This document shows, one piece after another, positions 11,640 through 32,888 of a stretch of 32,888 bases of DNA. Positions within the stretch are counted from its first letter, which is position 1. Each line of letters starts with the position of its first letter. Under the pieces are notes generated by a model, which saw only the letters and a program-made list of their open reading frames with translations, was not told the DNA's origin and did no database searches. The position numbers and the translations under genes were made by a program. The stretch is from a virus (lineage: Duplodnaviria; Caudoviricetes), in IMG/VR virus record IMGVR_UViG_3300016476_000286, positions 1 to 32,888 of that record; one strand, 5' to 3'.

Positions 11640-12066
11640 TATTTCAATTTTGGCTTGTAAGCCACAAAAATCAGTTACAGAGTATAAATATATTAGCAAG
11701 ACTGATACGTTGATTAGAAGCGAAATAAACACTATCTACAAAGGTGTTACCGATACAATCACGATTGAAAATCCTTGCGATTCGGTTGGTATTATAAATT
11801 CATTCTATACAAAACTTGTTTTGCCTAATGGTATCATTGAAATCAAATCGAATAAAAAGAACAATCAGCTTACAGGGATTGTTAGGATTAATGATATTGT
11901 ATCAAGTAATAAATCACAAAAGCAATCAAGCAATGCAGAAAGCATTACTACAAAGACAAAAGAAGTAATCAAATATCGAATACCTTCATGGCTAATCATT
12001 GCACTTATGATAGAAACATTTATTATAATTGCATATTTATATCTCAAATATGGATTTAAAAGATAA
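11611..12066 (+). CDS. Putative unimolecular spanin
   Basis: Lipoprotein signal MKKLIYILVSISILA-C, beta-rich middle, C-terminal TM helix; follows endolysin. Confidence 0.7.
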   Translation: MKKLIYILVSISILACKPQKSVTEYKYISKTDTLIRSEINTIYKGVTDTITIENPCDSVGIINSFYTKLVLPNGIIEIKSNKKNNQLTGIVRINDIVSSNKSQKQSSNAESITTKTKEVIKYRIPSWLIIALMIETFIIIAYLYLKYGFKR

Positions 12067-13042
12067 AATTGATGTAATTAAGCAACATTTTAATTCCACG
12101 AATCTCGGAATTACAAAATTTTGTTCAGATTTCTTTGATGTGTATGGTTTTAACCAGCCCGAATCAATGAGGAGATGGATGAATAAAAACGATTTGGGAA
12201 ACAAGGCAAGGGTAGAACAAACCGCAAAACCTATTTCAAAAGGCAAAATACAATCATTTGATGTACATTTGCTTGAAAATTACGGCATCCTTGATTCAAT
12301 CGGGCAAGAATATACAAGCTACAAATTACCGCCAGAGTTTAAACGAATTGGAGTTTTATCAGATATTCACTTCCCATTTCATTCGATGGAGGCTTTAATC
12401 CCAGCGATTAAATACCTAAAAGAAAAAGAGATTGATTGCCTTTATTTGAACGGAGATATATTTGATTTTTATTCTATTAGCAGACATGAGAAAGACCCAG
12501 ACCTACGAGATTTTAAGAGAGAGGTTGAAATGTGTAGGGATTTCGTTCAAAAGCTAAAAGATATTTTCCCTAATTGCTTACTTGTTTACAAATTAGGAAA
12601 CCACGAGGATAGGTATGCAAGAAGCTTACAAGTACAAGCCGAAGAGTTTGCCCAGCTTCACGATTTGCAGTTCCATGTTTTCTTTCACTTGGATAGATTA
12701 GGTTATCAAATAGTTGATTCGTGGAGAGGTTGCGAGATTGGCGATTTGTTGGTTATTCATGGACACGAGGGTTTTGGAACAGGTGGTGTAAACCCAAGTC
12801 AAAGTTTATTTAATAAAATGTATTGTAATACTTTAATGGGTCATGTTCATAGGACTACTAATACAATGAAGAAAACAGGTTTTAATAAAGTTATAAATAC
12901 ATATAGTACGGGTTGTTTAACTACATTGACACCTAAATATATGCCTTATAACAACCACAATCACGGGTTCGCATATTTAGAAGTTAACAATGGAATTACA
13001 AAAGTTGAAAATATTATTATTAAAGACGGGAAAATAGTGTAA
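12050..13042 (+). CDS. Calcineurin-like metallophosphoesterase
   Basis: SDIH, NGDIFD, GNHE, HGH, GHVH motifs in order. Confidence 0.88.
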   Translation: MDLKDKIDVIKQHFNSTNLGITKFCSDFFDVYGFNQPESMRRWMNKNDLGNKARVEQTAKPISKGKIQSFDVHLLENYGILDSIGQEYTSYKLPPEFKRIGVLSDIHFPFHSMEALIPAIKYLKEKEIDCLYLNGDIFDFYSISRHEKDPDLRDFKREVEMCRDFVQKLKDIFPNCLLVYKLGNHEDRYARSLQVQAEEFAQLHDLQFHVFFHLDRLGYQIVDSWRGCEIGDLLVIHGHEGFGTGGVNPSQSLFNKMYCNTLMGHVHRTTNTMKKTGFNKVINTYSTGCLTTLTPKYMPYNNHNHGFAYLEVNNGITKVENIIIKDGKIV

Positions 13043-13047
13043 ATTTG
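13040..13047 (+). promoter_or_regulatory. Bacteroidota housekeeping -7 element
   Basis: TAAATTTG matches TAnnTTTG; predicted +1 near 13051. Confidence 0.6.
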
Positions 13048-13050
13048 TAT

Positions 13051-13142
13051 TAGCAACTGCAACTGCTATTTCAAAACATTAACGGCACATCTTATTTATA
13101 AATGGTTGCAGATTTATATTTAATTTGTGCCTTTATTATTTT
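13051..13142 (+). ncRNA. Structured 5' leader: two hairpins with complementary loops (kissing loop)
   Basis: TAGCA/TGCTA stem with loop CTGCAAC; GGCACA/TGTGCC and TATAAAT/ATTTATA stems with loop GTTGCAG. Confidence 0.65.
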
Positions 13143-13637
13143 ATGGAAATTTATGTTAAAGCAAATTGTGAATTTGAGAATTACTTGATAAGCAATTTAA
13201 CAAATGTAAAAAATGAAATTACAGGTAGGATACTTAAACCACAATTAGATAGATATGGTTACAATTATGTAACTTTAAATAAAAATGGCAAGTCGAAAAA
13301 ATTCAAATTGCATAGATTAATGGCAATGACATTTATTAAAAATTTTGAAAATAAAAAAGAAGTAAATCACATCAATGGCATAAAAACTGATAATAGGATT
13401 GAAAATTTAGAATGGGTTACACATTTTGAAAATCAAATGCACAAAACTCTAATGATGAAAAAAACAAGCAAATACATAGGTGTTTGTTTTTATAAGCAAA
13501 CAAAAAAATGGAAATCCCAAATTCAGATTAATAATAAAAAAATCTCTATTGGTTATTTTGATACTGAAATAGAAGCATATAATGCAAGATTAAAATTCGA
13601 AAAAAATAATAGCATTATTAACAAATATATTGTTTAA
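13143..13637 (+). CDS. HNH homing endonuclease (NUMOD4-like N-terminus, HNH, AP2 domain)
   Basis: LHRLMAMTFI, VNHINGIKTDNRIENLEWVT, SKYIGV...KWKSQI...IGYFDTEIEA; very AT-rich. Confidence 0.92.
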   Translation: MEIYVKANCEFENYLISNLTNVKNEITGRILKPQLDRYGYNYVTLNKNGKSKKFKLHRLMAMTFIKNFENKKEVNHINGIKTDNRIENLEWVTHFENQMHKTLMMKKTSKYIGVCFYKQTKKWKSQIQINNKKISIGYFDTEIEAYNARLKFEKNNSIINKYIV

Positions 13638-13642
13638 ATTTG
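13635..13642 (+). promoter_or_regulatory. Bacteroidota -7 element upstream of a short non-coding transcript
   Basis: TAAATTTG; no credible + strand ORF between it and the terminator at 13697. Confidence 0.55.
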
Positions 13643-13810: not shown

Positions 13811-14029
13811 ATGAAAAATCTATTAGAATGCTTAAAACCAGAACACAGAGATTCTATTACAAAAAATGCTTATCAAAGCATGGCAAATCAAGTTTTCCAA
13901 GATTTACAAAATAACTATTCAATTCTTGACTTAAAATTTGAAACCATTATTCATCTTGGTATGTTGCTTGACATTTATCCAATTTTATTTACCGAAATCG
14001 ACAATTTATTCAATTATGAAACTAATTAA
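13811..14029 (+). CDS. Hypothetical protein, first early gene
   Basis: A-rich leader, 72 aa. Confidence 0.7.
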   Translation: MKNLLECLKPEHRDSITKNAYQSMANQVFQDLQNNYSILDLKFETIIHLGMLLDIYPILFTEIDNLFNYETN

Positions 14030-15891: not shown

Positions 15892-16084
15892 TCGTGGATA
15901 CAAGCGATTGTCAAGCAAGTTTATTTTTGAAATTGTACGTTACAATACAAACGTTTCTGGTAATGATGGCTTCAAGATTAACAACATTTACACTGCTGAT
16001 TATGCAAGGCAGTTTGAAAAAGACCACCAACAATATGCTGGATATTTTACCAAAAGATTTGTAAAAGACAAAGAAATTGTTTAA
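15812..16084 (+). CDS. Conserved phage hypothetical protein
   Basis: F..YFNQNP.IY, IFEIVRY, FKINN.YTA.YAR pattern. Confidence 0.7.
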   Translation: MKTFREYFNQNPQIYVEYKKVAYNLINRGYKRLSSKFIFEIVRYNTNVSGNDGFKINNIYTADYARQFEKDHQQYAGYFTKRFVKDKEIV

Positions 16085-16089
16085 TATTG
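16058..16089 (+). promoter_or_regulatory. Bacteroidota-type promoter for replication gene
   Basis: TTTG (16058-16061), 20-nt spacer, TAATATTG (one mismatch to TAnnTTTG). Confidence 0.5.
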
Positions 16090-16096
16090 TAATGTA

Positions 16097-16194
16097 GATG
16101 CCTTCTCACATTATAGCATCAAAGGACTTAAAATGCCTTCATTCAATGAAATCGAAGTGAGAAGCGATGGATTTGTTTGGAGGCTTTTTTATTT
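16097..16194 (+). ncRNA. Structured 5' leader: two hairpins with complementary loops (kissing loop)
   Basis: GATGC/GCATC stem with loop CTTCTCAC; GCCTTCA/TGGAGGC and ATCG/CGAT stems with loop GTGAGAAG. Confidence 0.65.
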
Positions 16195-16977
16195 ATGGAA
16201 AAGGAAGGATTTTATTTCCCACATTTTAGCAACGCAAGGCACGACAGGAAAATTCGCAGATTGCGTTTAGAACTTGGCATTGAAGGATATGGCATTTATT
16301 TTATGCTATTAGAAACACTTCGAGACCAACACGATTTGTCTTATCCATTAGGAGATTTGGACTTGTTAGCCGATGAATTTGGAACAAGTGAGCAAAAAGT
16401 AAGGGTGGTAGTATGCAATTACAATTTGTTTGATGTTGATGAAGACCAAAAGTTTTTTAGTCCTAAATTACTTTTGTATTTAGAACCGTACTTTAGAAGC
16501 AAACAACAACGCATTGAGGCTGGTAAAGCAAGTGCTTTGAAACGAAAGTTAAACGAAAGTTCAACGACCGTTGGAACGACCGTTCAACAAAGTAAAGTAA
16601 AAGAAAGTAAAGTAAATGAAAAAAAAGAAAATGAAAGTAAATCAAATAAAAGTAAATTAAATGATTTTCTTTCAAGTGAGTTTTTTCAGAATCAATTTGA
16701 AAAACTTTGGATTTCTTATGGTCGTAAAGGCTCAAAGCAAAAAGCACTTTTAGAAGTTAAAAAATTAAACGAGGAAGATTTAAAAAACTTTTGCGAATCA
16801 GAGGAACATATTTTAGCTTACGTTGAAAATACAAAGGATGAACCGAAATATCGCAAAGACTTTGAAAGATACATATCCAATAAATATTGGGAATCAGATA
16901 TTTTCAGAAGTCAAAAAGTTGGTAAAATTGGAAAAACTATGCAACTTTACAACAACCTAATTAATAAAGATTTCTAA
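16195..16977 (+). CDS. Replication initiator, DUF4373 (Lin1244/Lin1753-like) N-terminus
   Basis: YFPHFSNARHDRKI..LR..LGIEGYGIYFMLLE; internal iterons; C-terminal FEKLW..Y.RKGSKQKA...YRKDFERYI. Confidence 0.8.
   Translation: MEKEGFYFPHFSNARHDRKIRRLRLELGIEGYGIYFMLLETLRDQHDLSYPLGDLDLLADEFGTSEQKVRVVVCNYNLFDVDEDQKFFSPKLLLYLEPYFRSKQQRIEAGKASALKRKLNESSTTVGTTVQQSKVKESKVNEKKENESKSNKSKLNDFLSSEFFQNQFEKLWISYGRKGSKQKALLEVKKLNEEDLKNFCESEEHILAYVENTKDEPKYRKDFERYISNKYWESDIFRSQKVGKIGKTMQLYNNLINKDF
16541..16662 (+). repeat. Probable replication origin: four AAC-N4-GTT iterons then A-rich AAAGT repeats
   Basis: AACGAAAGTT at 16541 and 16552, AACGACCGTT at 16563 and 16575. Confidence 0.7.
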
Positions 16978-30655: not shown

Positions 30656-32888
30656 ATGGCATATTTATCAAAATCAGATGCAATAAATAAGTTGAGCAAC
30701 GGACTAATAGATAACGATTCATTTGCTATCTATACATCTGACAATAACTTTAATAATAACACGATATTTTATACTAATTCGGCAAAGACAATTTTATTGC
30801 CACAAGGGAACTATGTTATCCCTTCAAATTATCGTTCAATTTATATTCAGATTGGCTCAAATGGTAAATTTTCAGCCAATCCAGAATTTTTATTTGCAGC
30901 TACTCCAGATGTTTCATTTGTAGACCAATCGATTTTCAATTATCAAACAAAGACAAGGCAGTCAAGTTTTTCTATAACCAACTGTTCACTTTCAAACGAT
31001 GTTTTGACTGATTCAAATTGGTCGACACCATCTCCTTCGGGTAATCCAAAGCAATGGGTAGTAAACAATGGATTCAGAAATACTTCGGCTTTGACAAATA
31101 TAAATTTGTCGGAAATGAAAGGATTTGATTTAATGATTTATGTTGGTGGTAATACAAGTGGGTATTTTAACGATTTCTTTTCAACCTCTTGCTTTGTTCA
31201 TATTGCCCAAGACCTTAATAGGCAGACAATATTTGTAGAAGGGATTTACAATAAAACGTATTTTTTTAAGCAAGATTATTGGTTTGCAAAACAAAACATA
31301 AATTCGCCAACTTTTTACCGAAGGAATTTAAACATTTTGCCAATAACAAATCAAAGAGGTGCTACGAAGTTTAATGCACATATGAGCCAATATATCCACG
31401 ATATTGTGGCTATAAATAGAACTTCGTTAAGAACTTCAACGAGAAAGGCAAGAGGTGTAAATTTTGAGCAAGAGCAATTAGACCCAAAGCAATACAACAC
31501 AACTACCGCAACAAATTTTGGGTTTATTAATGCCGTTGGTTATCCAGATGCTAATTATGTAACACCAAAAGCCGAAAGTATTAATTTCGATGCACCAAAT
31601 GTAGTTGCTGATTTGTTTTTTACAATTTACGGCACTCCGTTTAATACGGCATCGACTACACACCAAGTTCAATTAACGGCAACTTTGCGTTCAATGTTTT
31701 TTCAAGACTTCACAGGTAGCTATACTTATGGAGAAATTACCGTACAATATTCACAAGCTAATCCTTTTCAATGGATTTGTGATTTAACTACAAATGGAGG
31801 TAATTACTTGGCAAAGGCATTTAGAACAAATTTGCAAACAAATGCAAAGATTTGGTTTTTTAACTTTGAATTATTTACGATTGTACAAGATGATGTAATT
31901 GCAAAAAAAGCAATTTTGGAATGCTTTAAAGTCGCTAAACTTGATTTAATTGCTAATAATCTTTTACCTATTGATGTTAAGATAATTTGGTATGCTGGGG
32001 CAAAGTCAATTTATTTTTCAGATGGTGGATTTGAAGACCAATTTGGAGGACAACCAACACCTGCCAATTATTTAAGTTCGCCATATTACAACGATTACCA
32101 CAATTACTACATAGGCAATCAAAACAAATCGGTTCTACAAAGACCATTTGACCAAGCCGTGTACGATTATTGCGAGTTATATCAAGGTATTGCCGTTTCG
32201 AATTACATTAATTCGTACAATACGACTACCTATTTCCATAAAATGGCACACCATTACGACATTAATAACAAATTGATTAAAGAAAGATTAGGCAATAATC
32301 ATCAAGTCAATTTGATGTTCTTAATGTTTGAATATTTTGAAACAGTTGCTGGTTCTAATTGGCTTACAGGAGTAAGAAAAGCTGCCAATGCAAGTGGACA
32401 ACCAGAAGGTGCAAAGCCTGATATTCCACCAGACATATTGCAATCGGTAGGTGCTTGGGCATTCGGTTTTGCCGATGGTAACTTATGGTGGAACTTTAAT
32501 GATTGGGTAATGGAGTTCTACGAGAATTACGCATATCCAACTGCTTATCCGCCAGAAAACTTTAGAAACAATTTTAGTGCAATGGATTGGTATTATTCAT
32601 CTATTGCACAAATGTACCAAAATAGAGATATTTTATCGGCTAATACTGAATGGCAATATGTTCCACAAAGTAAAGGAGGTGGTCAATTTACAAGTGGAAC
32701 GGAAAACTATCCATTTGTTGGATGGGTATTTCAGAGACCTTTGATTTGTGCAAAGTTTAATGTTGCTGGAACGGAAGCATTAGTTTTAGCAATAAATCCG
32801 TTCAATAATGGATATACAAAGACAACTACACAAGTTCAATTAGTTGCTGGTCAAACAATGAGTATTGATATGTTTGGAACGTACACTA
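30656..32888 (+). CDS. Tail-tip/receptor-binding protein (allele B), runs off the window end; ~752 aa when closed; absent from ORF track
   Basis: ATG 1 nt after upstream stop; open to the end (MAYLSKSDAINKLSNG...); continues as the 1-1515 frame. Confidence 0.88.
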   Translation, partial: MAYLSKSDAINKLSNGLIDNDSFAIYTSDNNFNNNTIFYTNSAKTILLPQGNYVIPSNYRSIYIQIGSNGKFSANPEFLFAATPDVSFVDQSIFNYQTKTRQSSFSITNCSLSNDVLTDSNWSTPSPSGNPKQWVVNNGFRNTSALTNINLSEMKGFDLMIYVGGNTSGYFNDFFSTSCFVHIAQDLNRQTIFVEGIYNKTYFFKQDYWFAKQNINSPTFYRRNLNILPITNQRGATKFNAHMSQYIHDIVAINRTSLRTSTRKARGVNFEQEQLDPKQYNTTTATNFGFINAVGYPDANYVTPKAESINFDAPNVVADLFFTIYGTPFNTASTTHQVQLTATLRSMFFQDFTGSYTYGEITVQYSQANPFQWICDLTTNGGNYLAKAFRTNLQTNAKIWFFNFELFTIVQDDVIAKKAILECFKVAKLDLIANNLLPIDVKIIWYAGAKSIYFSDGGFEDQFGGQPTPANYLSSPYYNDYHNYYIGNQNKSVLQRPFDQAVYDYCELYQGIAVSNYINSYNTTTYFHKMAHHYDINNKLIKERLGNNHQVNLMFLMFEYFETVAGSNWLTGVRKAANASGQPEGAKPDIPPDILQSVGAWAFGFADGNLWWNFNDWVMEFYENYAYPTAYPPENFRNNFSAMDWYYSSIAQMYQNRDILSANTEWQYVPQSKGGGQFTSGTENYPFVGWVFQRPLICAKFNVAGTEALVLAINPFNNGYTKTTTQVQLVAGQTMSIDMFGTYT
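31400..32888 (+). repeat. Terminal direct repeat, copy B
   Basis: Colinear with 1-1489. Confidence 0.97.

What the first reader, a model, noticed from the sequence alone, without database searches (positions are those of the whole stretch)
13051..13142. Kissing-loop 5' leader before the HNH-AP2 endonuclease
Seen: just after TAAATTTG, hairpin 1 TAGCA(13051-55)/TGCTA(13064-68) displays CTGCAAC. Hairpin 2 (GGCACA 13084-89/TGTGCC 13126-31, inner TATAAAT/ATTTATA) displays GTTGCAG (13105-11), its exact complement. A U-rich 11-nt spacer then leads to ATGGAA. The same architecture with different sequence recurs at 16097-16194, which amounts to covariation within one genome. Inference: a cis-regulatory RNA family (attenuator or translational switch) limiting DNA-acting proteins. 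I cannot name a matching Rfam family.
Basis: partly seen in the sequence, partly recalled or inferred. Interest (0 to 1): 0.8.

Follow-up and report, generated by a model that had tools for sequence, protein, structure and literature searches.

The report
Kissing-loop leader RNA of phage nuclease
In front of this phage's DNA-cutting-enzyme gene lies a roughly 90-base stretch with no Rfam match, predicted to fold into two RNA hairpins whose tips carry complementary 7-letter words; related phages keep those words complementary while the letters change, and the pairing likely sets how much transcription passes a probable stop signal into the gene.

Summary
The leader belongs to a family in likely Bacteroidota phages: TAnnTTTG box, hairpin 1, terminator-like hairpin 2 with U-tract, AUG.

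Found by protein homology, 11 of 11 close HNH homologues and 78 of 80 replication-initiator loci carry it, with loops complementary in all (10 words in the latter; order can swap). A scan blind to the three variable letters gave 30 of 113 complementary (shuffles: mean 3.1). Leader and HNH gene form one cassette: 18 of 20 records with the same upstream gene lack both, 2 have both.

There is no Rfam hit. The topology matches the guanidine-IV riboswitch. The loop words resemble C4/CI 'a' boxes, and P4's word equals the window's second leader, but both memberships fail.

Best reading (0.55): a kinetic attenuator in which the kiss forms first and delays the terminator. Direction, trigger and transcription are untested. 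This scan noted the family on other genomes before, and unnamed candidates of Fremin 2023 may overlap it.

The parts
12029..13042 (+). Upstream metallophosphoesterase gene; its stop codon TAA overlaps the promoter-like box and marks the insertion site
   Evidence: Pfam PF00149, phrog_221; ORF as listed
13040..13047 (+). TAAATTTG, match to the Bacteroidota sigmaA -7 box TAnnTTTG; predicts +1 at about 13052. No TTTG at the -33 spacing (element recalled)
   Evidence: box consensus and -12..-5 position from PMC9723704 passages; the 8-mer is common in the window (70 matches, 54.7 expected)
13051..13068 (+). Hairpin P1 (5 bp; the 4-bp core 13052-13067 is conserved), 8-nt loop ACUGCAAC showing word CUGCAAC 13057-13063
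13069..13083 (+). 15-nt unpaired A/U-rich linker
13084..13131 (+). Hairpin P2, terminator-like (6+3+7 bp, two 2x2 internal loops), loop GGUUGCAG showing word GUUGCAG 13105-13111
   Evidence: (7 of 15 P2 pairs change on both sides in 8 sequences)
13132..13142 (+). U-rich tract (6 U in first 8 nt) that is also the 11-nt spacer to the start codon
13143..13637 (+). NUMOD4-HNH_3-AP2 putative homing endonuclease, 164 aa; inserted together with the leader
13635..13642 (+). Second TAAATTTG overlapping the HNH stop; restores the stop+TTTG junction seen at empty alleles
16082..16089 (+). TAATATTG, -7 box with one mismatch (TTTG 16058-61 lies 20 nt upstream) for the second leader
16097..16194 (+). Second leader of the same design: P1 16097-16120 (word CUUCUCAC 16102-09), P2 16135-16184 (word GUGAGAAG 16157-64), U6 tract, 10-nt spacer
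16195..16977 (+). Lin1244_N (DUF4373) protein, putative replication initiator, 260 aa
   Evidence: Pfam PF14297, phrog_2562

Best explanation
This is a conserved two-hairpin leader with complementary loop words that likely works as a kinetic transcription attenuator: a promoter would start the RNA at hairpin 1, the word in its loop would pair with the matching word as that emerges from RNA polymerase, and this kiss would delay closure of the probable terminator so that only part of the transcripts run into the nuclease gene. Shown: sequence, conservation, matched changes in stems and loop words, strand, and co-mobility with the HNH gene. Inferred: promoter use, termination, the ON direction of the kiss, and that no small ligand is involved. 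What tips the balance in the cell is open; an RNA with the same word blocking loop 1 in trans is my first candidate.
For: (1) Loops stay complementary in loci chosen by protein only: 11 of 11 close HNH homologues and 78 of 78 leaders found among 80 initiator loci, 10 words. (2) Blind scan: 30 of 113 complementary, 23 of 28 where both stems exist, 11 words; shuffles mean 3.1, max 13 of 10,000. (3) Stems covary: 17 of 22 stem pairs change on both sides in 38 leaders. G-U cells 46 versus A-C 5 favour + strand RNA. (4) P1 starts at a median of +2 from the start site predicted by the -7 box; a median of 6-7 U follow P2 in the first 8 nt in all three sub-lineages, while the spacer to AUG mostly spans 7-25 nt. 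(5) Fold snapshots: up to 13125 the predicted best structure is the word-word helix; the full terminator wins by about 11 kcal/mol only once 13126-31 are made. (6) P1+P2 height has a median of 26 nt in two sub-lineages with opposite split (about 14+12 and 5+21), with linkers of 15-20 nt; the guanidine-IV riboswitch has this topology, with kiss = antiterminator limited by linker length.
Against: No expression or termination data. The simple terminator scan does not call either P2 (it needs an uninterrupted stem), and this leader's tract UUUAUUAU is interrupted. The -7 box exists at many empty alleles too and lacks a -33 element here, so the leader may be read from upstream transcription. In the HNH sub-lineage the 7 kissing pairs never vary, so their covariation is borrowed from the wider family. 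The snapshots cannot model pseudoknots, and the geometric argument is rough; a kiss might instead stabilise the terminated RNA. In this sub-lineage P2 ends 9-11 nt from AUG, which also fits a translational role.
Confidence: 0.55

Rival explanations
1. Minimal C4/CI-like RNA immunity or timer: the terminated ~88-nt RNA accumulates and its P2 loop binds loop 1 of nascent transcripts in trans, forcing termination. The variable word is an address that sets self-shut-off and incompatibility between phages. This is compatible with the best explanation and would supply its trigger.
For: Loop grammar resembles C4 'a' boxes: 13 of 31 c4-a1b1 loci show a [G/U]U-NNN-A[A/G] word with its complement downstream; P4's word GUGAGAA/UUCUCAC equals the window's second leader and occurs in 3 of 31. 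Words switch between close relatives (20 parsimony changes, minimum 9; polarity 5 changes). Words differ between the two leaders in each of the 7 genomes where I saw two (window, G306, G309, G317, G323, G327, L402). IsrK is a precedent for a terminated leader acting on its own read-through RNA.
Against: No C4 cloverleaf, b box or a2 repeat. No third copy of the word is enriched in 21 genomes. The two-leader difference reflects two lineages, not independent cases. Paired changes can also arise by drift plus module exchange. The HNH word is constant.
Confidence: 0.2
2. Translational gate: P2 sits at the edge of the ribosome landing site, and the kiss holds it open or shut without termination.
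For: Spacer of 9-11 nt in the HNH sub-lineage with an interrupted U-tract. Flavobacterial initiation does not rely on Shine-Dalgarno pairing.
Against: The spacer has a median of 16-18 nt and reaches 25 nt in the other sub-lineages, and U residues cluster at the stem rather than at the AUG. The leader stays at the operon head in front of unrelated first genes.
Confidence: 0.13
3. Protein- or ligand-binding switch: the kissed structure binds a phage or host protein, or a small ion or metabolite as in guanidine-IV, through the fixed GU..AG / CU..AC flanks.
For: Four of seven kissing pairs never vary in 38 leaders; topology shared with guanidine-IV.
Against: Downstream proteins are unrelated (HNH, Lin1244_N, DUF6291, HTH_36, helicase), which argues against autoregulation by the gene product. 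There are no transporter or metabolic genes among them. The Watson-Crick kiss is predicted stable unaided (word duplexes about -7 to -12 kcal/mol).
Confidence: 0.1
4. Plain terminator or DNA-level feature with accidental complementarity.
For: AT-rich DNA; the second leader folds no better than its shuffles; the polarity-B blind scan showed no enrichment (2 of 120, shuffle mean 2.7).
Against: Matched changes across about 17 words, G-U bias and a fixed position behind a -7 box.
Confidence: 0.02

Closest known systems
Guanidine-IV riboswitch (mepA motif; bioRxiv 10.1101/2020.10.21.349134; PMC11611296)
   Same: P1 loop pairs with the loop of an intrinsic terminator across a short linker; the kiss competes with terminator closure (passages).
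   Different: Here the central letters vary and the loop order can swap; genes are phage nucleases and replication proteins, not efflux pumps; Bacteroidota is not among the six phyla listed; no Rfam hit; no ligand known.
P4 CI / seqA and P1 C4 / a1 antisense switches (Rfam RF01695, RF03163, isrK RF01394)
   Same: 8-nt loop showing a 7-nt variable word near the 5' end of a phage leader, complementary word downstream, in front of harmful or replication genes. P4's word is identical to the window's second leader; CI-seqA pairing controls early termination.
   Different: No cloverleaf, no b box, no a2 copy before the start codon. The complement sits in the terminator loop itself, the element is about 90 nt rather than about 300, and it has no hit to these models.
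IsrK of Gifsy-1 (PMC4825925)
   Same: Terminated leader sRNA and read-through mRNA come from one promoter, tuning a toxic gene (abstract and passages).
   Different: IsrK acts by extended pairing on a downstream ORF and activates translation; its terminator loop is not the partner.
Plasmid rep-leader pseudoknots under antisense control
   Same: Loop-mediated long-range pairing in front of a replication initiator, with variable specificity.
   Different: Those need a counter-transcript; no conserved antisense -7 box was found here. No paper on them was read.
Unnamed candidates DNAVirus_8377, 4859, 187, 704 of Fremin et al. 2023 (PMC10690425)
   Same: Freshwater phage csRNAs within 25 nt of the same gene families. 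8377: 105 nt, terminator called, Bacteroidetes host, HNH_3/NUMOD4/AP2. 4859: 106 nt, HTH_36/DUF4373.
   Different: Identity unproven: alignments and diagrams could not be read. The main text has no occurrence of 'kissing' or 'HNH'.

Membership tests
C4/CI antisense system | Match to the C4, c4-a1b1 or isrK models | tested here: not met
   No hit in the window region at E<=10 or in 9 leader loci at E<=1, while the P1 and P4 controls hit strongly
C4/CI antisense system | a/a' word pair: 7-nt word in an 8-nt loop with a downstream complement | tested here: met
   identical word in P4 and the second leader
C4/CI antisense system | Second target copy (a2/seqC) before the start codon, and a b/b' pair | tested here: not met
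   No further CTGCAAC or TTCTCAC near either leader; no third-site excess in 21 genomes; no second pair in alignments
C4/CI antisense system | Processed stable RNA acting in trans | not testable with these tools
   Needs RNA data or a bench test
Guanidine-IV riboswitch | P1 loop pairs with the loop of a terminator-like hairpin followed by U | tested here: met
   (topology only; termination is inferred)
Guanidine-IV riboswitch | Rfam match and association with guanidine efflux genes | tested here: not met
   No Rfam match; downstream genes. I did not check which accession holds this family
Guanidine-IV riboswitch | Ligand binding | not testable with these tools
   Needs in-line probing
Counter-transcript-controlled plasmid rep leaders | Conserved antisense promoter across the leader | tested here: not met
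   Reverse-strand TAnnTTTG within -20..+250 of AUG: 0 of 9 HNH homologues; 8 and 15 of 80 initiator loci at two offsets. Only this promoter type and range were tested
Intrinsic terminator (P2) | G+C-closed stem directly followed by a U-tract, with an RNA 3' end there | tested here: inconclusive
   6 U of 8 here, median 6-7 in the family; not called by the simple scan; 3' end untested
Free-standing homing endonuclease cassette | Optional insert at a fixed site with empty alleles in relatives | tested here: met
   18 of 20 records with the upstream gene are empty, 2 carry leader plus HNH; cleavage and homing not tested

The most novel reading that the evidence does not exclude
A one-piece, ~90-nt RNA switch with an exchangeable 7-letter address: in cis the kiss opens the terminator, and in trans the terminated RNA closes it. 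Bacteroidota phages and their homing endonucleases would get a protein-free expression pulse and an RNA-coded incompatibility system, a minimal relative of C4/CI that phages swap as a module.
Probability: 0.27. Interest if true: 0.85.

Novelty: new variant of a known kind. Interest (0 to 1): 0.66.

Why it matters
It is a compact, well-covarying RNA family at the head of replication operons and of mobile nuclease cassettes in common freshwater phages, absent from Rfam and not described in the searches that ran. It would explain how these phages dose replication initiators and nucleases. It would extend the kiss-versus-terminator switch beyond ligand-binding riboswitches and link it to C4/CI immunity. 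About 17 natural word pairs make cis rescue and trans specificity directly testable, and could give orthogonal control parts for Bacteroidota.

Tried and rejected
- Single-protein locus search for the HNH in viral contigs: 0 confirmed of 52 stretches.
- Fixed-word scans: mostly chance; I kept L048, L109 and L197 of 240 loci, and these were selected for complementarity.
- Polarity-B blind scan: 2 of 120 complementary, one a real leader, no enrichment.
- 77 more distant HNH loci: only L262 passed the descriptor.
- Model R1 on about 300 cellular genomes of the family and phylum of G002: of 20 hits inspected, 19 show no kissing words (many are plain terminators) and one is a cut-off half leader on a short contig. 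Only 24 candidates per genome were scored in the two large searches, so this is 'not found', not 'absent'.
- GenBank phages: no match to a leader; only distant homologues of the proteins.
- Third-site and antisense-promoter ideas: not supported.
- RNA runs: no RNA holder listed.
- One search used a structure shifted by one column and is replaced. The 100% kissing pairing is by construction, as most rows were picked for complementarity.
- L384 and L389 have no leader within the 1.5 kb held. L375 was mis-parsed and is complementary.
- Two literature searches timed out. The supplement of PMC5737381 and the alignments of PMC10690425 could not be read and may hold this motif.

Full report
1. Observation. 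The window is a phage-like contig of about 31.4 kb plus a 92%-identical end repeat. RNAfold returns both hairpins with z about -3.2. The gene behind starts at 13143 and encodes a 164-aa NUMOD4-HNH_3-AP2 protein; the second leader precedes a Lin1244_N protein that PHROGs calls a replication initiator. Rfam has no match in the window, none over the leaders at E up to 10, none in 9 homologous leader loci while P1 and P4 controls hit, and none in 51 kb of three relatives. A descriptor written afterwards finds only these two leaders and a mirror image in the window, against 0.1 hits per shuffle.

2. Family. I collected loci by protein so that the RNA played no part in the choice. All 11 close HNH homologues (58-64% identity; some are near-duplicates) carry the leader. 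Ten have the window's order CUGCAAC then GUUGCAG; L247 has a different scaffold and the reverse order with the same word. In 8 aligned sequences 99.5% of cells pair and 8 stem pairs change on both sides, but the 7 kissing pairs never vary. Of 77 more distant HNH loci one passed the descriptor.

For the initiator, 80 of 230 confirmed loci were returned. With the variable letters masked, 78 of 80 have a leader within the DNA held: 59 with the GU..AG loop first and 19 with the CU..AC loop first. The loops are complementary in 77 by script and in the mis-parsed L375, over 10 words. Where other genes intervene, the leader stays at the head of the operon. A collection scan that left the three central letters free gave 30 complementary pairs of 113, 23 of 28 with both stems, 11 words, against a shuffle mean of 3.1 and a maximum of 13. 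The scan for the window's own polarity gave 2 of 120, which is chance level.

In 38 leaders 17 of 22 stem pairs change on both sides, and G-U outnumbers A-C 46 to 5, which favours RNA of the + strand. Genes behind scan hits include Lin1244_N, DUF6291, HTH_36, HNH and a helicase; 5 of 19 had no family. Host assignment to Bacteroidota rests on the promoter box and on leaders or half leaders in a Bacteroidota and a Flavobacterium MAG. On a quick tree of 75 initiator genes the word changes 20 times (minimum 9, shuffled mean 38.7) and the polarity 5 times (no support values examined). Leaders are therefore probably exchanged as modules, and the number of independent compensatory events is nearer 9 than 78.

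3. Mobility. Of 30 records searched, 20 have the same upstream phosphoesterase. Eighteen lack both leader and HNH and run from the stop codon into the 3' element; two have both. Leader and gene are thus one cassette of about 595 bp. The same CUGCAAC leader precedes other HNH-like genes at other sites in G306 and G323 (recognised by motif) and probably G317. The -7-like box is present at many empty alleles, so it need not belong to the cassette. The window's third HNH gene (21686) has a box but no such leader.

4. Mechanism. PMC9723704 (passages) places TAnnTTTG at -12 to -5, which puts +1 at 13052, the first base of the conserved P1 core; the family median is +2. P2 is followed by 6-7 U in 8 nt in all sub-lineages, while the spacer to AUG varies. 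In fold snapshots the word-word helix is the best structure until the last six stem bases are made, after which the terminator wins. The combined stem height has a median of 26 nt in two sub-lineages with opposite proportions. This is the topology of the guanidine-IV riboswitch, where the kiss blocks terminator completion and depends on linker length (passages of bioRxiv 10.1101/2020.10.21.349134 and PMC11611296). I therefore commit to a kinetic attenuator with kiss = read-through (0.55). All functional steps are inferred. Against it: an interrupted U-tract, no call by the simple terminator scan, no -33 element (recalled) for this leader, and a short spacer that also fits translational control.

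5. Comparison. The words resemble C4/CI 'a' boxes. P4 shows GUGAGAA in both target loops and UUCUCAC in CI, identical to the window's second leader. Of 31 c4-a1b1 loci (16 from one genome), 13 have a [G/U]U-NNN-A[A/G] word with its complement downstream. In 15 of 18 words that I tallied by hand the fourth letter is a purine, as in U-turn recognition loops (recalled), so convergence is possible. Membership in C4 fails (no model hit, no b box, no a2). Membership in guanidine-IV fails on sequence and gene context, and there is no conserved counter-transcript promoter. For CI and IsrK I saw passages of PMC10111431 and the abstract and passages of PMC4825925. In PMC2864571 and PMC5737381 I saw passages only and found no such motif; the supplement of the latter was unreadable. 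PMC10690425 (passages and two supplementary tables) lists unnamed candidates of matching length, habitat and downstream genes, so the family may already be catalogued anonymously. Searches (listings only) returned no description; the library lacks most subscription papers.

6. Earlier notes and verdict. Eight earlier notes of this scan describe the same design on other genomes; none concerns this genome or sequence. They gave me the guanidine-IV, third-site and plasmid-pseudoknot leads, which I checked; the C4 link I had found before reading them. Verdict: a real RNA family not in Rfam and a new variant of kiss-controlled terminator leaders, with mechanism unproven. Interest 0.66; 0.85 if the word proves to be a trans-acting address.

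Noticed in passing
window:13635-13728: Behind the HNH stop lie a TAnnTTTG box, a TTTTCATA..AGGTTT motif and a G+C hairpin with U-tract; similar elements follow the stop codon in HNH-bearing and most empty alleles. Possibly a separate small RNA. In the window it has a 15-nt perfect complement over the start codon at 13811, but 8 relatives show only 8-12 nt, no better than other genomes.
   Followed up: partly
window:21675-22273: Third HNH gene with TATATTTG only 3 nt before its ATG (21686) and no kissing leader; possibly a leaderless transcript.
   Followed up: no
window:1-1489 and 31399-32888: The two ends are 91.8% identical over 1493 nt rather than an exact repeat: a merged strain variant or a diverged terminal repeat.
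   Followed up: partly
L331, L333-L336, L338, L349, L357, L358, L372, L388, L393, L398: Small genes, some methyltransferase-like or HNH-like by eye, sit between the leader and the initiator gene, so this position looks like an insertion hotspot.
   Followed up: partly
alignment A5 columns 63-76 (e.g. L331:1217-1333): Leaders with the GU..AG loop first have a small GGUU..AACC hairpin in the linker whose 5' side could also pair with the terminator's AAGCC strand; absent from the window's leaders.
   Followed up: no
G307, G312-G314, G319, G320, G324: Genomes using the word GUAGGAG carry fewer extra copies of it (mean 1.1, n=7) than other genomes (3.6, n=14); may be relatedness or decoy avoidance.
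   Followed up: no
G395 (L775, L783, L786 and others): One Pseudomonadota genome holds 16 c4-a1b1 matches with many different loop words.
   Followed up: no
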